Shown: piece by piece, positions 4,502 to 16,731 of the stretch
How positions within the stretch are numbered: position 1 is the first letter of the stretch
Layout of the letters: each line of letters begins with the position of its first letter
The notes under the pieces: generated by a model
The model's database searches: none
The model's input: the letters and a program-made list of their open reading frames with translations, nothing else
What the model was told of the DNA's origin: nothing
Translations under genes and position numbers: made by a program
From: a virus
Lineage: Duplodnaviria; Heunggongvirae; Uroviricota; Caudoviricetes
Virus record (IMG/VR): IMGVR_UViG_2548876945_000002
Length of the DNA stretch: 17,117 nucleotides
Strand: one strand, 5' to 3'

Positions 4502-4680
4502 CTTGTTTTCCTCGCACGATGTCTTAGCCACCGGATATCCCACAGATGAGCCGCGTAGTTGAAGGTTTTTACGTCAGATTCTTTTGGGATTAGCTTGCGT
4601 TTATTTCTGGAACGCTTCGTTGGAAGGTATTTGCAGTTTTCGCAGATGATGTCGGTGATACTTCGTCGCTGTCGTCTCAT
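4498..4680 (-). CDS. ninE: NinE, 60 aa
   Basis: From the internal ATG at 4680..4678 the translation [60 protein letters not shown] matches lambda NinE. ATGA overlap with the methyltransferase stop. Confidence 0.8.
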
Positions 4681-5204
4681 GCCGCCCTCCTGACGCCCTG
4701 CCCGATCGCCATCAATGCCGCTTTGGATACGGTAGTAAACATCCGTCGAGGACTGATGAACGGTCGCCAAATCAGCAGCATGGAGCCTTTGCTGTTTCCC
4801 TTCTTCTCCAGCCCTGTCGATGGTTCGATAAAATTAATCCGTCCATCAGTGATAATGCGAACTTCGTCAACACTCTCCAGAGCCTTGCTGAACCATCCGA
4901 CTGACATATCCTCTGGCACAAGCATAACTACCGTCTGTCGCTGTTGTATGCACTGCTCAGCGGCTTTTTCCACCCACGGCCTGATATTGCTGTGCGGTGG
5001 GTTATTCCAGATTGCACCGTGGCTTACCCACTCAGAATTGAGCGCGTCGTCGGCCTCAGTTAGCCAGTGAGCACACAGAGCATTTTTGTCGCTCGCTGCC
5101 GAATCCAGCCAGAATCCAAACTCAATATCCAGTGCATCAAAAAGCCAAAGCGGCGTTTGCCAGCAGTCCTTGTCGTGTGCTGGCGTATTTGATTTGATAG
5201 TCAT
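4677..5204 (-). CDS. Phage-type DNA N6-adenine methyltransferase (Dam family), about 175 aa
   Basis: Translation [25 protein letters not shown]...[16 protein letters not shown] carries an NPP(H/Y)-type motif typical of N6-adenine methyltransferases. Preferred start is the ATG at 5204..5202, which overlaps the HNH stop as ATGA; the ORF-track start is 5222. Confidence 0.7.
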
Positions 5205-5803
5205 GCAGCCCGATCTCCCCATCTCGCTTTCATTGTTTCATTTGCAAATCGCCAGAATCTTCCTTTGTGATATGAGCTTTCGCCATTACAGCAACGACTA
5301 ATTGACGAACTATCAAATCCTTCTCTGACAGCATCCATAGCTGCTTCATAATAAACCTCCTCCCCAGTTTTCATGTCAGTAGAAATAACAGCTTTACTGG
5401 CAGGATGATCACCACTAAATTTACCTAGCGATATAGGTATTCTTCCATTTTGTTTATATCCGTGCTTTGAGTTTTCAGAATGTGATACCCATTCAAGGTT
5501 TTCAGCCCTATTGTCATCTCTTTGCCCATTTTTGTGATTAACTACCAAGCCATCACAGAACCCTGTACAGAATGCTTTCGCAACTATCCTGTGGGCGCTG
5601 TATTTCTTACCGTATACCTTTATTTGAAGATATCCTGTCGACTTGCACTTGAATGGTTTTACGCTAGTGCCATTAATTATTTTCTTATATGGCCTCTGTC
5701 TAGTTGATGTTACTGTAATTTCCCTCGTAATAGACCTGAAATTTCCTTTATTGCTAACCTGATAAAATGGAATTCCTTCGATATCTACCCAAACCTCAAT
5801 CAT
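5201..5803 (-). CDS. HNH homing-type endonuclease (NUMOD4-like N-terminus, HNH core, C-terminal DNA-binding module), 200 aa
   Basis: N-terminal WVDIEGIPFYQVSNKGNFRS, HNH core NHKNGQRDDNRAENLEWVSHSENSKHG, C-terminal SISRCCNGESSYHKGRFWRFA. The region is AT-rich relative to its flanks. A GGAGG Shine-Dalgarno lies inside the ninB 3' end. The last codons encode KARWGDRAA (see findings). Confidence 0.8.
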   Translation of the reverse strand: MIEVWVDIEGIPFYQVSNKGNFRSITREITVTSTRQRPYKKIINGTSVKPFKCKSTGYLQIKVYGKKYSAHRIVAKAFCTGFCDGLVVNHKNGQRDDNRAENLEWVSHSENSKHGYKQNGRIPISLGKFSGDHPASKAVISTDMKTGEEVYYEAAMDAVREGFDSSSISRCCNGESSYHKGRFWRFANETMKARWGDRAA

Positions 5804-6212
5804 AATTCCTCCATTCGCTAAGATGAATTGAGTTCATGGCACAATATGCTTCTATGTAGTCCATTATTTCGGATATTTTTTTTACAGAGAGAGTCGCCGT
5901 ACTCTCTCTGATGTTTATTAGCTCACCTTCTAACCCTGATATAATCTCAGGGTGCTGGTTGGTTGCAATCTGCCAACCAGAAACGAATAACCCCTTCCAA
6001 AACTCAATATTTCTTGCTTTTCCATGATATGTAGCCTTCTTACTTATTTCAGATAGCATCGCGTGAAGGCGTGCATTTTGCCGAATGCTGCGGTTGCGTT
6101 CCTGAATGGTTACTACGATTGGTTTGGTTGGGTCTGGAAGGATTTGCTGGATAGCTTGAATGGCGTTCTGCTGATGTGCTGGAGATCGAATTTCAAAGGT
6201 TAGTTTTTTCAT
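5796..6212 (-). CDS. ninB: NinB (Orf-family recombination mediator), about 138 aa
   Basis: From ATG at 6212..6210: MKKLTFEIRSPAHQQNAIQAIQQILPDPTKPIVVTIQERNRS is nearly identical to the lambda NinB N-terminus. The rest is divergent but alignable with lambda NinB. Confidence 0.85.
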   Translation of the reverse strand: MKKLTFEIRSPAHQQNAIQAIQQILPDPTKPIVVTIQERNRSIRQNARLHAMLSEISKKATYHGKARNIEFWKGLFVSGWQIATNQHPEIISGLEGELINIRESTATLSVKKISEIMDYIEAYCAMNSIHLSEWRNYD

Positions 6213-6230
6213 GACTTCCCTCTCCCCCAA

Positions 6231-10933: not shown

Positions 10934-11296
10934 GTGACCCAAAACGTATTGCCAATCAACAAGAGCTTGCATGACCGAGCTGTTGATGAATTTAATCGTC
11001 TGCATGGAACAATGATTGGCGAGATTAGTGCAATGCTGAAAACAGCTAAAGTAGCGCCATTGGTGGATCTTCGTAAGAAAGATCCTACCTTTTCGAACGT
11101 TGTCGCAGAATTACGGACATTCAGAGACGTATGTAATGCTCTGCTCCCATACTTTCGTGTAGATAAGACCAGCGAAATCGCTGTCATCGATAAGTTACTT
11201 ATACTGGCTAATGACCTGGCTCAAGCCATCGATGCTGACGATCCTGACGCATTGTGCGCAGCAATAGCAGCCCTTGATGTTGAGCCTTACATTTAA
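10934..11296 (+). CDS. Hypothetical protein (120 aa) in the cI-to-pL accessory slot
   Basis: GTG start at 10934 with AAGGAG 8 nt upstream. Preceded by about 270 bp of AT-rich non-coding DNA containing promoter-like hexamers. Predicted soluble and helical. I do not recognise the sequence. Confidence 0.6.
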   Translation: MTQNVLPINKSLHDRAVDEFNRLHGTMIGEISAMLKTAKVAPLVDLRKKDPTFSNVVAELRTFRDVCNALLPYFRVDKTSEIAVIDKLLILANDLAQAIDADDPDALCAAIAALDVEPYI

Positions 11297-11655: not shown

Positions 11656-11700
11656 TTCGTACCAATAGTTCTTGATAATGTCGAACTATTGGTTCATTAT
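11656..11700 (+). promoter_or_regulatory. Candidate pL promoter with left operator sites
   Basis: TTGATA (11672-11677), 17-nt spacer, CATTAT (11695-11700). A perfect 10-bp inverted repeat CCAATAGTTC / GAACTATTGG (11662-11671 and 11683-11692) overlaps the -35 and spacer. TTCGTACCAATAGTTCT resembles the OR site TTCGTACTTTCAGTACG. Confidence 0.5.
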
Positions 11701-11949: not shown

Positions 11950-12333
11950 ATGACACGCAGAACTCAGTTCAAAGGCAATTCACGTTCTCGTCGTCGTGAG
12001 CGTTTAAAGGCAAAGGCATTAGCTAACGGCGTACTGGCCCGCGAAGAAGCAATAAGTTCAGAAGTATTACACCGCCCTACTCTAAGCAGAGCGCAGATTC
12101 AGGCTAAAGGTACTCACGAAACGCCTGAGCGCATAGAAGACGCTAAGCCAATTAAGTTCATGGCACAGGACGTGATCTGGCAACAGAAAGAATACAGACG
12201 CAATCTGGAGAGAGCGGCCATTGTGTACGCGAATGAGTTTGGGCATAGGCAACCAGAAACTGGTGTATGTCTTCCAAATGTAGCTCTTTACGCGGCAGGC
12301 TACCGTAAATCCAAACAACTGACAGCAAGATGA
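11950..12333 (+). CDS. N: N-type transcription antiterminator (P22 gp24-like), 127 aa
   Basis: N-terminal arginine-rich motif GNSRSRRRERLKAKA. C-terminus LPNVALYAAGYRKSKQLTAR closely matches the P22 N C-terminus (LPGVALYAAGHRKSKQITAR as recalled). AGGAGG 6 nt upstream of the ATG. First gene after pL and nutL. Confidence 0.8.
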   Translation: MTRRTQFKGNSRSRRRERLKAKALANGVLAREEAISSEVLHRPTLSRAQIQAKGTHETPERIEDAKPIKFMAQDVIWQQKEYRRNLERAAIVYANEFGHRQPETGVCLPNVALYAAGYRKSKQLTAR

Positions 12334-12391
12334 CTTGTGTTGGTCGCCAGAAAATGAAATTAGGCAGCAAACCACTGTATGAGGGGTGAGA

Positions 12392-12523
12392 TATGAGCTA
12401 CCAAATTCAATACAGAAGTTGCGGTAGATGGGTTTGCGGAAACTCTTTCAAAACAAAAGAACAGGCTGAGCAATACGCAAAACAAACAGGTCAGGATTAT
12501 CAAATTGTAAAGACAAGGAGATA
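12392..12523 (+). CDS. Small ORF (43 aa, two Cys in a CxxxxC arrangement)
   Basis: MSYQIQYRSCGRWVCGNSFKTKEQAEQYAKQTGQDYQIVKTRR, found by manual translation. GAGGGG upstream. Its stop lies 2 nt before the next gene, which has its own AAGGAG. Confidence 0.4.
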
Positions 12524-12525
12524 AC

Positions 12526-13383
12526 ATGCCAGGATTTACAAGTAAATTCATACCAAGAAGAGAATTCAAGCATAATCCAGAAAGACTAAATGTTATTTCT
12601 TCCGGTGGTGGGACTCAAAGTAACGCAATAATCTGCTTAGTACATGCTGGCGTTCTTCCAAAGCCTGACATTATCGTTATGTCAGATACAGAACGTGAGG
12701 CAAGTAATGTATTTGAATATCAGAAAAAATATATAGCTCCTATTTGTGAAGATATGGGTGTTGATTACCTGATTGTTCCTAAAAGTAGATTTGCTACCTA
12801 CGACATTGATGGGCCTGATCCAGACGTTCCTCTACCTGGATATTTCACAGAATACGAGGGAAGGGATTCAAAAGGAATGTGCGCTGGAAAGCAACCAGCA
12901 TTTTGTTCTATAAAGTGGAAAACTGAAGTTATTCAGAGATTTTTAAATGAAAGATATGGAGAGAAGTATCTCACAGCAAGAGGAGTGGATAGTTGGATGG
13001 GGATAAGCATTGAAGAGGCTACACGAAGAGCGAAATACCCAACTGGCAAGTGGCAGAGGCGCTATCCACTTATTGAAATGCTAATGACTAAACAGATGGC
13101 AATTCAATGTGTCGAGGATTATGGTCTTCCTACACCACCTGCCTCGCTTTGCTGGATGTGCCCTAACAGAGATGATGATCTGTGGCTTTATATGAAAAAT
13201 AACGTCCCATCTGATTTTGAAAGAGCATGTCAGCATGAAAAAGAGATACAAATGAAGTGGCCTCATTTGTGGCTTACTAAATATGGTGTTCCACTATCTG
13301 AGGCACCACTAACACCTAGTGGTGGTAAAAATGCACAAATGGATCTTATACAATTCTGCGATTCTGGACTGTGCTTCGTTTAA
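12526..13383 (+). CDS. PAPS-reductase-like / PP-loop superfamily protein (DndC-like or NinC-like fold), 285 aa
   Basis: N-terminal VISSGGGTQSNAI resembles a degenerate SGGxDS PP-loop; C-terminal CWMCPNRDDD is a CxxC element. The gene is clearly AT-rich relative to N and recT. Superfamily call is by motif only. Confidence 0.55.
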   Translation: MPGFTSKFIPRREFKHNPERLNVISSGGGTQSNAIICLVHAGVLPKPDIIVMSDTEREASNVFEYQKKYIAPICEDMGVDYLIVPKSRFATYDIDGPDPDVPLPGYFTEYEGRDSKGMCAGKQPAFCSIKWKTEVIQRFLNERYGEKYLTARGVDSWMGISIEEATRRAKYPTGKWQRRYPLIEMLMTKQMAIQCVEDYGLPTPPASLCWMCPNRDDDLWLYMKNNVPSDFERACQHEKEIQMKWPHLWLTKYGVPLSEAPLTPSGGKNAQMDLIQFCDSGLCFV

Positions 13384-13519
13384 GCCGCATAACCCATTAG
13401 AGCAGAAATATTCGCTAATTAAAATTGAAAGAATAATTTCATTTATAAACCAGTTCCCTGAATCTTACCTGTTTTGCGATGGTGATCGGGAAATAGCAGA
13501 GATTAAGTTTGAGGAATGA
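13331..13519 (+). CDS. Possible small ORF (62 aa) overlapping the 3' end of the PAPS-reductase-like gene
   Basis: MHKWILYNSAILDCASFKPHNPLEQKYSLIKIERIISFINQFPESYLFCDGDREIAEIKFEE from an internal ATG. No clear Shine-Dalgarno; very AT-rich. Ends 1 nt before a terminator hairpin. May be spurious. Confidence 0.25.
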   Translation: MHKWILYNSAILDCASFKPHNPLEQKYSLIKIERIISFINQFPESYLFCDGDREIAEIKFEE

Positions 13520-13520
13520 A

Positions 13521-13545
13521 GCCGAATATTCGGCCTTTATTTTTG
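13521..13545 (+). terminator. Intrinsic terminator (tL-type) after the PAPS-reductase-like region
   Basis: Perfect 14-bp palindrome GCCGAATATTCGGC followed by CTTTATTTTTG. Confidence 0.6.
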
Positions 13546-13663
13546 GCATAAACAACAGAATAAACACTGCACTGTGTATTCATTCCAACGAGTGAATACA
13601 CGGAGCAATGTCGCTCGTAACCAAACAGGAGCCGACTTGTTCTGATTATTGGAAATCTTCTTT

Positions 13664-13690
13664 GCCCTCCAATGTGAGGGCAATTTTTTT
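13664..13690 (+). terminator. Intrinsic terminator just upstream of the coiled-coil gene
   Basis: GCCCTC-CAATGT-GAGGGC hairpin followed by AATTTTTTT. It falls inside the ORF-track N-terminal extension of the next gene, so that gene more likely starts at 13703. Confidence 0.65.
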
Positions 13691-13702: not shown

Positions 13703-14671
13703 ATGAGTGAAGTAACAGATTTAGTTGTTATTGAAAAAGCAAATGCAATGACTGTATTTCAGTCTGCCGACCAGATTGAAGAAATTCTCCAAAAGGTTGA
13801 ACGTGAAGTTATGTCCTTTGTGCCTGATATCACAACGGCAAAGGGCAGAAAGGAGATCGCTTCTCTGGCGTATAAAGTTGCGCAGACGAAAACATATCTC
13901 GATGGTCTTGGCAAAGACCTTGTTGCTGAACTGAAGGAAATTCCAAAGCTAATTGATGCCAACCGCAAAACAGTGCGCGATCGCCTTGATGAACTGAAAG
14001 CCAAGGCGCGCCAGCCTCTTACTGATTATGAGGAAGAACAGGCGCGGATTAAAGCCGAAGAAGAAGCTAAGGCAGCAGCTGAAGCTCTCGCAAAGCAAAT
14101 TGAGTCTGACCATGAAATAGCGATTTTGATGGATCGCGAATTTGACCGCCAAAGAGAAGAGGCAAGACTCAAAGCGGAGCAGGAAAAGCGAGAGCATGAA
14201 GAGCGCTTAAAAAGAGAAGCTGAAGAGAAAGCCAGAGCTGAAGCCGAAGCAAAGGCAAAAGCCGAAATTGAAGCAGCAGCAAGGCGAGAAGCAGAAGCTA
14301 AGGCAGCAGCGGAACGTGCAGAGCGTGAACGTATTGAAGCCGAGCAACGAGCACAGCGCGAAGCAAAAGAGGCAGCAGAACGAGCTGAAAGAGAAAAGCA
14401 GGCAGCGATTGAAGCAGAACGCAGAAAAGCACAGGAGGAGGCTGAACGAATCCGTCGCGAGGCTGAAGCAAAAGAGCAAGCCAGAATAGCAGAAGAAAAA
14501 AGAATCAAGGACGAAGAAGAGCGTAGAGCAAAGGATAAAGCTCACCGGAAAGAAGTAAATAACAAAATACTTGCTGACCTTATCAAGGTTGGAGCATCAG
14601 AAGATGTTGCTAAAAATATCATAACAGCCATCGTAAAAGGCGAAGTATTCGCAACAAAAATAACCTACTAA
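13703..14671 (+). CDS. Hypothetical protein with a long charged ER/K-rich alpha-helical (coiled-coil or single-helix) domain, about 322 aa
   Basis: Start ATG at 13703 with GGAGG 4 nt upstream. About 120-residue N-terminal domain, about 170 residues of EAEAKAKAE / REAEEKARAE-type repeats, then a short C-terminal segment. TolA-like in composition only. Confidence 0.7.
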   Translation: MSEVTDLVVIEKANAMTVFQSADQIEEILQKVEREVMSFVPDITTAKGRKEIASLAYKVAQTKTYLDGLGKDLVAELKEIPKLIDANRKTVRDRLDELKAKARQPLTDYEEEQARIKAEEEAKAAAEALAKQIESDHEIAILMDREFDRQREEARLKAEQEKREHEERLKREAEEKARAEAEAKAKAEIEAAARREAEAKAAAERAERERIEAEQRAQREAKEAAERAEREKQAAIEAERRKAQEEAERIRREAEAKEQARIAEEKRIKDEEERRAKDKAHRKEVNNKILADLIKVGASEDVAKNIITAIVKGEVFATKITY

Positions 14672-15068: not shown

Positions 15069-15357
15069 TAAGCGTGAAATATCGCAAATTATCGCAAGTT
15101 TTACTGATGAAGATTACGAACGAATCAACAGTGAAGTTGATCGCCTCTGCAAACGTTGCGACCCAATAAGCGAAATGCTTCGCTCATATAAACCAGATGA
15201 ACATACTAAGGATGCTATCGACTGGCTGGAAGATGATGATTGTAACTATCAGGAAAAAGCCGCTGAATGGTTCTGGGATGCAATAACCGAAAGAGTTAAG
15301 GCTGAATATGCCTTCGCAATATTCAAACGCAGACACATTTTTGGAGAAGCTGCATGA
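15046..15357 (+). CDS. Hypothetical protein (103 aa), translationally coupled to recT
   Basis: MMILTLNDKREISQIIASFTDEDYERINSEVDRLCKRCDPISEMLRSYKPDE.... AGGAGA upstream. Its stop overlaps the recT ATG as ATGA. Not recognised. Confidence 0.55.
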   Translation: MMILTLNDKREISQIIASFTDEDYERINSEVDRLCKRCDPISEMLRSYKPDEHTKDAIDWLEDDDCNYQEKAAEWFWDAITERVKAEYAFAIFKRRHIFGEAA

Positions 15358-16265
15358 GCAATATCGTTGAATTCGTTAAACAGCAAGAGCAGTTATTCTG
15401 CGGAGCATTGACTGAACAGACGGTGACATGGGCTAAGGAAAGCCAGTTTGCAATTCAGTATTTCCAGAAAAACGATTACCTGGCTAAAACGGCACTGGCA
15501 AATCCAACCAGCGCACAGAACGCCATCATCAATGTTGCGGCGATCGGCATCACCTTAAACCCGGCCAGCAAACTGGCTTATCTGGTTCCGCGCGACGGCA
15601 TGGTTTGCCTTGATATCAGTTATATGGGATTGCTCCATATTGCAATGGAGTCTGGTGTTATCTCATGGGGTCAGGCAAAACTTGTTCATGCTAACGATAC
15701 CTATGAGTCAAACGGGCTTGATAAAGCACCAACCCATAAATACAACGCCTTCGGTGATCGTGGTGATATCGTTGGCGTTTACTGCACAGTTAAGACGCCA
15801 GCAGGTGATTATCTAACGGAAGAGATGAGTCTGGCTGAAATTGAGGCTGTAAGGAAAACAAGCAAGGCAGCATTCAGCGATAAAGGACCATGGGTAAATC
15901 ACTGGAATGAGATGGCGCGAAAGACGGTCGTAAAGCGTGCAAGCAAGTATTGGCCTAAGGCATCACGTCTTGATAGTGCTATTCACGTACTAAACGAAGA
16001 AGAAGGTGTGTGGACTGAACCAGTTATGCCGCACAAATCAGAGGAAGATATCCGCGAAGATGAACGGAAACTCCAGCAGGAAATAATGGATAAAGTACAA
16101 CTTCTTTGCGATGAAATGGCTCAGGCAGAAAACATGGATGATTTGAAGCGATATTTTGCAGAAGCATATCGCCTAACATCTGGAATGAAATTACAGCAGA
16201 ACGTACAAGCCATTTACATAGAATGCAAAGCGAAACTGGAGGTTGCCAGTGAGCAAACTATATGA
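15354..16265 (+). CDS. recT: RecT-family single-strand annealing recombinase, 303 aa
   Basis: Segment GPWVNHWNEMARKTVVKRASKYWP matches E. coli RecT (GPWVTHWEEMAKKTAIRRLFKYLP as recalled), and the N-terminal half is alignable as well. Confidence 0.85.
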   Translation: MSNIVEFVKQQEQLFCGALTEQTVTWAKESQFAIQYFQKNDYLAKTALANPTSAQNAIINVAAIGITLNPASKLAYLVPRDGMVCLDISYMGLLHIAMESGVISWGQAKLVHANDTYESNGLDKAPTHKYNAFGDRGDIVGVYCTVKTPAGDYLTEEMSLAEIEAVRKTSKAAFSDKGPWVNHWNEMARKTVVKRASKYWPKASRLDSAIHVLNEEEGVWTEPVMPHKSEEDIREDERKLQQEIMDKVQLLCDEMAQAENMDDLKRYFAEAYRLTSGMKLQQNVQAIYIECKAKLEVASEQTI

Positions 16266-16731
16266 AATAGCCAATGAATACGCAAAATTGATGGATTCAG
16301 ATTTAGATCCAGAGATGATTGCTGACACAATAGAAGGCATGGAAGGAGAATTTACCGATAAAATAGAGCAACTTCTCGCCATTATTAAAAATGAATCTGG
16401 TTATGCTGAACGCCTCAAGGAAGAGGCAAAGTCGCTGAATGAGCGAGCCGCAGTAATTCAAAATAAGATTGACAGCATCAAATCATATATAGCGTCATCG
16501 CTTGAAATGGTTGGCAAGAAAAAGATTCGAGCAGGTATTCACCAGGTAACAATCCGCAAACCGTCAGAAATTGTAGAAATAATCGACTCAAGCGCCCTTC
16601 CTCCTGAATACGTTGAGTTTGAAACGACAATTAAAGCCAACAAACTGGCAATCAAACACCAACTAAAAGCAGGAATAAATATCCCAGGCGCTCAACTCAA
16701 GGTTGGGAAACCTTCACTTCTTATCAAATAA
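16249..16731 (+). CDS. Hypothetical protein, possibly siphovirus Gp157-family, about 160 aa
   Basis: Immediately downstream of and overlapping the recT 3' end. GTG at 16249 has GGAGG 6 nt upstream (ORF-track start is TTG at 16243). Coiled-coil N-terminus and KP-containing C-terminus resemble Gp157-family proteins often found next to recombinases. Family call is tentative. Confidence 0.45.
   Translation: MSKLYEIANEYAKLMDSDLDPEMIADTIEGMEGEFTDKIEQLLAIIKNESGYAERLKEEAKSLNERAAVIQNKIDSIKSYIASSLEMVGKKKIRAGIHQVTIRKPSEIVEIIDSSALPPEYVEFETTIKANKLAIKHQLKAGINIPGAQLKVGKPSLLIK

What the first reader, a model, noticed from the sequence alone, without database searches (positions are those of the whole stretch)
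12392..13545. AT-rich PAPS-reductase-like (PP-loop) gene inserted in the N-antiterminated pL operon
The 285-aa ORF has a degenerate PP-loop (SSGGGTQSNA rather than SGGxDS) and a C-terminal CxxC, as seen in PAPS reductase and DndC-like enzymes that act on nucleotides or modify DNA. It is much more AT-rich than N upstream and recT downstream. It is bracketed by a 43-aa CxxxxC ORF and a terminator, so it looks like a separately acquired cassette. It sits where lambdoid phages carry anti-restriction and exclusion functions such as ral and sieB. The degenerate P-loop raises the question of whether it is catalytically active.
Basis: partly seen in the sequence, partly recalled or inferred. Interest (0 to 1): 0.65.

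Follow-up and report, generated by a model that had tools for sequence, protein, structure and literature searches.

The report
Phage NinC-like PAPS-reductase-fold gene cassette
A rare, horizontally acquired three-gene cassette just after the N gene of a lambda-like E. coli prophage encodes an apparently intact iron-sulfur enzyme that is distantly related to lambda NinC and to sulfate-assimilation PAPS reductase; it sits where related phages carry anti-restriction genes, and its function is untested.

Summary

The "degenerate" loop is not decay. Gln31 sits where SGGxDS has Asp, as in E. coli CysH, and is invariant across 60 diverse relatives. Also invariant are C127, K132, C209xxC212 and a C-terminal C278x4C283. 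The enzyme is therefore probably active, with a likely 3-Cys [4Fe-4S] site and a cysteine tail.

The family has at least 6,962 clusters at 50% identity and no conserved partner gene. This version is in only 2 of 5,426 complete E. coli genomes and in no sequenced phage.

The cassette (12396-13530) replaces an 83-aa ORF of phage mEp234. It holds three ORFs (43, 285 and 62 aa) and lies between N and the first terminator. Other prophages carry Ral and Nmad5 in this slot.

The most likely role is an early counter-defence or nucleic-acid-modifying enzyme; a phage PAPS-domain protein has been linked to anti-Dnd activity. It is a new member of a known, uncharacterised kind.

The parts
11672..11700 (+). 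pL-like promoter that drives N and the cassette
   Evidence: TTGATA-17-CATTAT consensus match. It corresponds to the 'similar to lambda PL' promoter annotated in mEp234 at locus 2774-2802.
11950..12333 (+). Antiterminator N gene (127 aa), upstream neighbour and part of the conserved scaffold
   Evidence: PF25694 1.7e-15 and phrog_271 3.8e-38. 100% identical to mEp234 N.
12396..13530 (+). Acquired cassette: the segment that replaces a 252-bp ORF (83 aa) of phage mEp234
   Evidence: blastn breakpoints against mEp234 at 12395 and 13531. In a P22-like prophage (JNE082640) the shared block starts at 12331. 39.6% GC over 12340-13545.
12393..12524 (+). ORF43, a small basic protein (pI 9.6) translationally coupled to the 285-aa gene
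   Evidence: 16 synonymous and 2 non-synonymous codon changes against L043. A 56%-identical homologue in L048 lacks both Cys. It travels with the 285-aa gene in 10 loci. phrog_15891 at 4.7e-5.
12526..13383 (+). 285-aa PAPS-reductase-like / NinC-superfamily enzyme. P-loop S25-S32 (Gln31), D54-T55-x-x-E58, C127...K132, C209xxC212, flexible tail C278x4C283
13331..13519 (+). ORF62, a third conserved small acidic ORF that overlaps the 3' end of the 285-aa gene by 53 nt
   Evidence: The core NPLEQ..FPESYLFC.GD..IAEIKFEE is conserved with the frame and stop preserved in L043 (79%) and L048 (71%). In L048 it starts by ATGA overlap with the upstream stop. No PHROG match.
13521..13544 (+). First intrinsic terminator-like hairpin plus T-run (scaffold, shared with mEp234)
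   Evidence: mEp234 annotates a 'rho-independent terminator' at the homologous place.
13662..13690 (+). Second intrinsic terminator (scaffold), just before the 322-aa coiled-coil gene
   Evidence: 8-bp stem plus T7. -17.5 kcal/mol, z -2.8. Annotated as a terminator in mEp234.

Best explanation
The region is a three-ORF accessory cassette (43 aa, 285 aa, 62 aa) that was swapped by recombination into the variable slot between N and the first terminator of the leftward early operon of a lambdoid prophage.

The 285-aa protein is an intact, stand-alone enzyme of the PAPS-reductase branch of the PP-loop fold and a distant paralogue of lambda NinC.

Proposed mechanism (inferred):
- The beta1-loop-alpha1 motif (SSGGGTQS, with Gln in place of the PP-loop Asp, as in CysH) binds an adenine nucleotide or an adenylylated or sulfo-nucleotide substrate.
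- C127, C209 and C212 hold a [4Fe-4S] cluster, as in APS reductase and DndC.
- The disordered C-terminal tail carries C278 and C283 into the active site as a nucleophile or persulfide carrier.

It lies upstream of the first intrinsic terminator, so it should be transcribed together with N in the first minutes of infection. Its most likely biological role is counter-defence. It may chemically modify phage nucleic acid, or it may interfere with sulfur-based (Dnd/Ssp-type) or other restriction. Host sulfate assimilation is a less likely role.

Shown here by computation: gene reality, fold, family, conserved residues, cassette borders, rarity, and the absence of partner genes. Inferred: the cluster, the substrate, the timing of expression and the biological role.
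For: - Family: phrog_424 1.2e-34. Lambda NinC and E. coli CysH fall in the same PHROG.
- Homology: hhalign against NinC gives 98%, E 2e-13 over 177 columns, including the P-loop, DTG, C..K and CxxC motifs. hhalign against CysH aligns SSGGGTQS with SSSFGIQA.
- Conservation: G27, G29, Q31, E58, C127, K132, C209, C212, C278 and C283 are invariant in 60 sequences with 28% mean column identity. C283 aligns with the CysH catalytic Cys. Gln is found in 222 of 273 collected members and the canonical GGGVDS loop in 8.
- Selection: 114 synonymous against 20 non-synonymous codon changes.
- Stand-alone: no conserved neighbour across 55 dereplicated clusters.
- Slot: holds Ral and Nmad5 in E. coli E2, and Ral or DUF7167 elsewhere.
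- Cassette borders and composition. Terminators.
- Neighbours elsewhere are DNA methyltransferases, Lar, a DpdA-like transglycosylase and ParB-like genes.
- Literature: a PAPS-domain/Dam fusion plus one neighbouring gene confers anti-Dnd activity in a Vibrio phage (bioRxiv 10.1101/2021.05.05.442762). PAPS reductases are listed as anti-defence candidates in Aca-regulated operons (PMC13551039). DndC has a 3-Cys [4Fe-4S] cluster plus a Cys dyad (PMC10853773).
Against: - There is no experimental datum for this protein or for lambda NinC.
- Pfam and NCBIfam give no hit. The link to characterised enzymes rests on remote homology (CysH hhalign probability only 63%) and on fold.
- I could not inspect model coordinates, so clustering of the three Cys is inferred from motif order, not measured.
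[quoted passage not shown] I could not retrieve its sequence, so its relatedness to this subfamily is untested.
- Being located in a hotspot is circumstantial evidence.
- The protein is near-neutral (pI 6.1), which gives no sign of nucleic-acid binding.
- Immediate-early expression assumes that the predicted hairpins are the first functional terminators.
Confidence: 0.5

Rival explanations
1. It is an auxiliary metabolic gene: a genuine CysH-type PAPS/APS reductase that boosts sulfite and cysteine supply during infection. This is how phage 'PAPS reductase' genes are usually read in virome papers.
Against: There is no PF01507 or NCBIfam cysH/APS-reductase hit. The ECGLH signature is replaced by CDSGxCFV. 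The E. coli host already has cysH. The gene sits in the immediate-early operon among DNA-metabolism and anti-restriction genes, never beside other sulfur-assimilation genes in 55 clusters. The virome paper itself notes that the function lacks experimental validation.
Confidence: 0.13
2. It is a DndC/SspD-type sulfurtransferase that writes phosphorothioate into phage DNA, using host IscS and possibly host Dnd/Ssp partners, so that the phage passes as 'self' in PT-based restriction hosts.
For: PADLOC SspD hit at 3.1e-7 over residues 120-252. The three conserved Cys plus a Cys dyad match the description of DndC. A phage PAPS-domain protein has been linked to anti-Dnd activity. Others make the same suggestion for phage PAPS reductases.
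Against: No DndC model matched in PADLOC or NCBIfam. The canonical SGGKDS ATP-pyrophosphatase loop is absent in this clade. No DndD/DndE or SspA/B/C-like partner occurs in any of 55 neighbourhoods. A host with Dnd already supplies DndC, so the benefit is unclear.
Confidence: 0.15
3. It is an RNA- or base-directed enzyme. One option is a TtuA/NcsA-like [4Fe-4S] thiolase acting on tRNA. Another is an accessory enzyme of the 7-deazaguanine (DpdA) DNA-modification pathway.
Confidence: 0.15
4. It is a decayed, catalytically dead remnant of a PP-loop enzyme, the possibility raised by the first reader.
For: The loop lacks the Asp of SGGxDS, and Pfam does not recognise the protein.
Against: The variant loop is invariant across 60 sequences with 28% mean column identity and matches the active enzyme CysH at that position. 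Five Cys, K132, E58, E164 and R167 are also invariant. Synonymous changes outnumber non-synonymous ones nearly 6 to 1. The family has at least 6,962 clusters at 50% identity.
Confidence: 0.03

Closest known systems
Lambda NinC (nin-region 'PAPS reductase', function unknown)
   Same: Same PHROG 424 (NinC 1.2e-89, this protein 1.2e-34). hhalign 98%, E 2e-13 over 177 columns. Similar size (290 against 285 aa). Shared x-G-G-x-x-S loop without Asp (NinC SGGRTS), DTG, FC..K, CxxC and a Cys-containing C-terminus. Both are non-structural accessory genes of lambdoid phages.
   Different: Only 19-20% identity; pairwise BLASTP E 0.003. It does not hit NinC's own PHROG 33262. NinC has Thr where this protein has the invariant Gln. 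This gene lies in the pL operon after N, not after ninB. The NinC type is common (562 phage records), whereas this type is in 20 records and in no E. coli phage. This prophage has no NinC after NinB; an HNH endonuclease and a Dam-type methylase sit there.
Assimilatory PAPS/APS reductase CysH (E. coli CysH; Fe-S APS reductase, PDB 2GOY)
   Different: No PF01507 or NCBIfam hit. No ECGLH motif. There is an extra insertion at residues 86-126 and a second tail Cys. The genomic context is phage early genes, not cys genes.
DndC / SspD / BrxP (phosphorothioation PP-loop sulfurtransferases)
   Same: Partial SspD profile match at 3.1e-7. The conserved 3-Cys pattern plus Cys dyad matches the description of DndC. 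Both act in phage-host conflict settings.
   Different: It lacks the canonical SGGKDS loop. It lacks DndD/E or SspA/B/C partners. No DndC model hit. It is much smaller than BrxP fusions.
PAPS-domain/Dam fusion p0018 of Vibrio phage 44E38.1 (anti-Dnd, Piel et al.)
   Same: A phage-encoded PAPS-reductase-like domain in a variable accessory region, exchanged between related phages by recombination and genetically linked to escape from a Dnd system.
   Different: That protein is 479 aa, fused to a methylase, and has a Pfam-detectable PAPS domain. Its effect was shown for two genes together. I could not retrieve its sequence, so its relatedness to this subfamily is untested.
PDB 21fy chain C 'PptA'
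   Same: Best solved-structure sequence match to the family profile (E 3.1e-6 over the C..K and CxxC region), and similar length at 270 aa.
   Different: The match is partial. I could not find what PptA is or does.

Membership tests
PAPS reductase CysH / Pfam PF01507 | Match to PF01507 (PAPS_reduct) at or above the gathering score | tested here: not met
   No hit even at E<=10. The best distant relatives reach 22.2 bits against a cut-off of 22.5.
PAPS reductase CysH / Pfam PF01507 | NCBIfam cysH or APS-reductase equivalog models | tested here: not met
   0 NCBIfam families at E<=1.
PAPS reductase CysH / Pfam PF01507 | Adenine nucleotide alpha hydrolase fold with the reductase-type loop (Ser..Gly-x-Gln, no Asp) | tested here: met
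PAPS reductase CysH / Pfam PF01507 | C-terminal ECG[LI]H motif with the catalytic Cys | tested here: inconclusive
   The invariant C283 aligns with the CysH catalytic Cys in a MAFFT alignment, but the motif is C-D-S-G-x-C-F-V.
PAPS reductase CysH / Pfam PF01507 | Thioredoxin-dependent reduction of PAPS or APS to sulfite | not testable with these tools
   Needs an enzyme assay or cysH complementation.
Fe-S APS reductase | Cys-Cys...CxxC ligands of a [4Fe-4S] cluster | tested here: inconclusive
   A single invariant C127 followed by the invariant C209xxC212 is present in the same order. There is no Cys-Cys pair. Cluster binding was not measured.
DndC / SspD | Canonical SGGKDS ATP-pyrophosphatase loop | tested here: not met
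   The loop is SSGGGTQS. Gln is found in 222 of 273 family members and Asp in only 8 remote ones.
DndC / SspD | Significant full-length match to DndC or SspD models | tested here: inconclusive
   PADLOC SspD 3.1e-7, but only residues 120-252. No DndC hit in PADLOC and no hit of any kind in NCBIfam.
DndC / SspD | Operon with DndD/DndE (or SspA/B/C) and a cysteine desulfurase | tested here: not met
   No conserved neighbour in 55 dereplicated clusters. The PHROG census of 150 neighbours shows methyltransferases, replication and recombination genes only.
Lambda NinC family | Homology to NinC at profile level and shared PHROG 424 | tested here: met
   hhalign 98%, E 2.2e-13. phrog_424 for both.
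Lambda NinC family | Membership of the NinC-specific cluster (phrog_33262) and close sequence similarity | tested here: not met
   Only phrog_424 was hit at E<=0.01. 19-20% identity. NinC was not found by tblastn with this protein at E<=1.
Lambda NinC family | Position in the nin region after ninB | tested here: not met
   The gene follows N in the pL operon. After NinB this prophage has an HNH endonuclease and a Dam-type methylase.
TtuA / TtcA / NcsA tRNA thiolases | SGGxDS loop, CxxC...C cluster order and flanking zinc fingers | tested here: not met
QueC / 7-deazaguanine pathway | QueC-like sequence or structure and co-occurrence with DpdA | tested here: not met

The most novel reading that the evidence does not exclude
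The 285-aa protein, perhaps with the two small co-travelling proteins, is a minimal stand-alone Fe-S enzyme. It would install or erase a sulfur-based or other covalent mark on phage nucleic acid within the first minutes of infection, without the DndD/E-type machinery that cellular systems need, and so defeat a modification-dependent defence. This would also give a first function to the whole NinC superfamily (at least 6,962 clusters at 50% identity), which virome studies currently count as a sulfur-metabolism AMG.
Probability: 0.2. Interest if true: 0.7.

Novelty: new member of a known kind. Interest (0 to 1): 0.38.

Why it matters
Phage "PAPS reductase" genes are very widespread. They are routinely scored as sulfur-metabolism auxiliary genes in virome studies, yet neither lambda NinC nor any stand-alone phage member has a demonstrated activity.

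This copy sits in a genetically tractable lambdoid prophage of E. coli, in a slot otherwise used for Ral-type anti-restriction genes. Its catalytic residues look intact.

Simple tests could decide between metabolism and counter-defence: cassette deletion or transplantation, plating on defence-system panels, and nucleoside mass spectrometry. The answer would correct or confirm a common annotation.

If it is a stand-alone nucleic-acid-modifying enzyme, it would be a compact new tool and a new anti-defence mechanism.

Tried and rejected
- Pfam, NCBIfam and single-sequence PDB searches gave nothing for the protein.
- I looked for an obligate partner gene in 107 related loci (55 clusters at 85% identity) by all-against-all clustering and by a PHROG census of 150 neighbours. 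None was found.
- I followed the DpdA (7-deazaguanine) lead from Serratia prophages. It holds in only 2 clusters, and there is no DpdA-like gene in the window.
- The ParB-like neighbour is confined to the Serratia lineage.
- I tried to identify PDB 21fy 'PptA' in the literature without success.
- I tried to retrieve the anti-Dnd PAPS/Dam fusion p0018 of Vibrio phage 44E38.1 without success.
- The afdb50 fold library was not available.
- There is no sign of an own promoter for the cassette: promoter-like sites are fewer than in shuffles (3 against a mean of 5.1).
- There is no Rfam family or tRNA in the window.
- I rejected the idea that the CxxxxC of ORF43 is a metal site, because it is not conserved.
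- I rejected the idea that the loop is degenerate.
Full report
**Setting.** The window is the early region of a lambdoid prophage, read in reverse relative to the usual lambda map. The left half, on the minus strand, holds an endolysin, a Q antiterminator, a NinI-like phosphatase, RusA, an Ant-type antirepressor, a Dam-type methylase, an HNH endonuclease, NinB, a primase/helicase and an O-like initiator. These are followed by cII and cro. The right half, on the plus strand, holds a cI-type repressor (PF00717/PF01381), N (PF25694 1.7e-15), the finding, a 322-aa coiled-coil protein, RecT and a Mu-Gam-like protein. A pL-like promoter lies at 11672-11700 and corresponds to the promoter annotated as pL in phage mEp234.

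- The 285-aa ORF (12526-13383), the SSGGGTQSNA loop at residues 25-34, C209xxC212, the 43-aa ORF with CGRWVC (12393-12524) and a hairpin plus T-run at 13521-13544 are all present.
- The ORF is 40.1% GC (GC3 0.29), against 48.4% for N and 45.3% for recT.
- It is a real gene. Against an 82.5%-identical copy (L043) it shows 114 synonymous and 20 non-synonymous codon changes.
- ORF43 shows 16 synonymous and 2 non-synonymous changes, so it is also a gene. Its two Cys are replaced by Asn in a 56%-identical homologue.
The frame 13331-13519 (62 aa) keeps its reading frame, its stop and a conserved core (NPLEQ..FPESYLFC.GD..IAEIKFEE) in two diverged copies. In one of these it starts by an ATGA overlap with the stop of the enzyme gene.
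- All three ORFs co-occur in the same 10 loci.

**It is a cassette.**
- N and the terminator region are 97-99% identical to 346 phage records, but no phage record contains the insert.
- Only 2 of 5,426 complete E. coli genomes contain the insert.
- Against mEp234, homology stops at 12395 (the ATG of ORF43) and resumes at 13531 (inside the terminator hairpin). So 1,135 bp replace a 252-bp ORF.
- In a P22-like prophage with a different N, the shared block begins at the N stop codon.
- In E. coli E2 the same slot, between N and the coiled-coil gene, holds Ral plus an Nmad5 "nucleotide modification" gene. Other genomes have Ral or DUF7167 there.
- Both terminators belong to the scaffold. The cassette lies upstream of the first one, so I infer that it is transcribed together with N, before antitermination is needed.
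- Promoter-like sites in the region are no more frequent than in shuffled sequence.

**What the protein is.**
- Pfam gives no hit even at E<=10, and NCBIfam gives none.
- PHROG 424 ("PAPS reductase") matches at 1.2e-34. PADLOC SspD matches residues 120-252 at 3e-7.
- An alignment-based AlphaFold model is confident (pLDDT 90.7). Only residues 272-282 are disordered.
- Among viral models the best match is a Vibrio podophage "PAPS reductase".
- The family is very large: 6,962 representatives of 50%-identity clusters at E<=1e-3. No listed member has a Pfam domain on record.
- Distant members hit PF01507 only just below threshold, at 22.2 against 22.5 bits. These include Geobacillus phage PK5.1 gp43 and Thermus phage P23-77 ORF3.
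- Lambda NinC and E. coli CysH both fall in PHROG 424.
- A 60-sequence profile aligns to NinC with 98% probability (E 2e-13, 177 columns). It aligns to CysH over the P-loop and DTG region with 63% probability (E 7e-5).
- Pairwise identity to NinC is only 19-20%, and the protein does not hit NinC's own PHROG 33262.
- The NinC type is common in phages (562 records). This type occurs in 20 records, none from E. coli.
- This prophage has no NinC after NinB.

**Is it active?**
- The loop is not degenerate. In the alignments, S25-S26-G27-G28-G29-T30-Q31-S32 matches CysH S-S-S-F-G-I-Q-A and NinC S-F-S-G-G-R-T-S. Gln31 therefore occupies the Asp position of SGGxDS, as in the active enzyme CysH.
- Across 60 relatives with 28% mean column identity, the following are invariant: G27, G29, Q31, E58, P104, C127, K132, E164, R167, P181, S207, C209, C212, C278 and C283.
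- Of 273 collected members, 222 have Gln, 8 have a canonical GGGVDS loop and 2 have Glu. The Gln form is a stable variant of a true PP-loop.
- The order C127...K132, then C209xxC212, then a Cys on a flexible C-terminal tail mirrors Fe-S APS reductases (CC...CxxC, ECGLH). That comparison is from my own knowledge of the Carroll 2005 and Chartron 2006 work.
- The same pattern matches the description of DndC as having a three-Cys [4Fe-4S] centre plus a Cys dyad (PMC10853773).
- C283 aligns with the CysH catalytic Cys.
- I infer, but did not measure, a 3-Cys [4Fe-4S] site and a mobile Cys tail acting as a nucleophile or persulfide carrier.

**Context elsewhere.**
- In 107 related loci grouped into 55 clusters there is no conserved neighbour. 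A PHROG census of 150 neighbours finds DNA methyltransferases most often, then replication and recombination genes and HNH endonucleases.
- In an Orbus prophage the gene follows a C5 methylase, with Dam and Lar nearby.
- In a Vibrio P2-like prophage it precedes the GpA replication gene.
- In Serratia prophages it follows ParB-like, ParE-like and DpdA-like (phrog_887, 5.8e-92) genes. One further cluster has a DpdA-like gene two genes downstream.
- At least 11 family members have an N-terminal four-Cys zinc ribbon.
- The enzyme therefore works alone or with host factors, and it lives among DNA-transaction and anti-restriction genes.

**Literature.**
- Virome papers treat phage "PAPS reductase" as a sulfur-metabolism AMG while noting that the function lacks experimental validation (PMC13369170).
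- Piel et al. showed that two genes specific to one Vibrio phage lineage let a related phage escape a Dnd system. One of the two is a PAPS-domain/Dam fusion (bioRxiv 10.1101/2021.05.05.442762).
- A 2026 paper lists PAPS reductases in Aca-regulated operons as anti-defence candidates (PMC13551039).
- I found nothing on NinC function.
- I found nothing on the PDB entry "PptA" (21fy), the best solved-sequence match at E 3e-6.

**Verdict.** The protein is a PAPS-reductase-fold enzyme in an acquired cassette in an anti-restriction slot. Three points need correcting:
- The loop is a conserved CysH-like variant, not a decayed one.
- It belongs to the already known, uncharacterised NinC superfamily.

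I rate an early counter-defence or nucleic-acid-directed role as most likely (about 0.5). The rivals are specific phosphorothioate writing (0.15), RNA or 7-deazaguanine chemistry (0.15), true CysH-type metabolism (0.13) and a dead remnant (0.03). It is a new member of a known kind, of moderate interest mainly because it offers a tractable way to test what this very large family does.

Noticed in passing
window 13331-13519 (+): A conserved 62-aa acidic ORF overlaps the last 53 nt of the 285-aa gene and ends 2 nt before the terminator hairpin. In locus L048 the homologue starts by ATGA overlap with the upstream stop. It has no PHROG match.
   Followed up: partly
window 4677-6230 (-): The nin region has no NinC. 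NinB is followed by an HNH endonuclease and a Dam-type DNA methyltransferase in a 37.5% GC stretch, which looks like another inserted module at the place where lambda carries ninC.
   Followed up: partly
window 10934-11296 (+): A 120-aa ORF lies downstream of cI, in the position of lambda rexAB. It matches phrog_13858 (unknown function, 5.2e-73) and follows an AT-rich stretch. It is a candidate lysogen-expressed exclusion gene.
   Followed up: no
window 13703-14671 (+): A 322-aa highly charged coiled-coil protein (E/A/K/R repeats) with AT skew up to 0.65. It is conserved at about 99% across lambdoids (mEp234 gp33) and is annotated variously as 'TolA' or 'coiled-coil'. Its function is unknown.
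   Followed up: no
L005/L006 4202-6858 (Serratia prophages): A gene string of ParB-like, ParE-like, a 251-aa DpdA-like transglycosylase (phrog_887, 5.8e-92) and then the PAPS-reductase-like gene. This is a possible composite DNA-modification island. L076 has a truncated DpdA-like gene two genes downstream of its homologue.
   Followed up: partly
proteins P0154, P0185, P0195, P0207, P0209, P0210, P0213, P0227, P0231, P0246, P0029: Family members carry an N-terminal four-Cys zinc ribbon (CxxC...[FY]CSxxC, twice in P0207 and P0231). Several of these also keep a canonical GGGVDS loop. P0204 is a tandem duplication of the domain.
   Followed up: partly
PDB 21fy chain C: A solved 270-aa protein called 'PptA' is the best sequence match to the family profile (E 3.1e-6, over the C..K and CxxC region). 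I could not find what it is in the searchable literature.
   Followed up: partly
L123 1623-2483 (E. coli E2 prophage); L001 3493-3744 (mEp234): The slot between N and the coiled-coil gene is a swap site. It holds Ral plus Nmad5 in E2, an 83-aa VT2-Sap20-like ORF in mEp234, and DUF7167 or Ral in other genomes.
   Followed up: partly
window 15354-16731 (+): The recombination module is RecT (PF03837) followed by a Gp157 / Mu-Gam-like protein whose ORF overlaps the RecT 3' end by 23 nt. This differs from lambda's exo-bet-gam.
   Followed up: no
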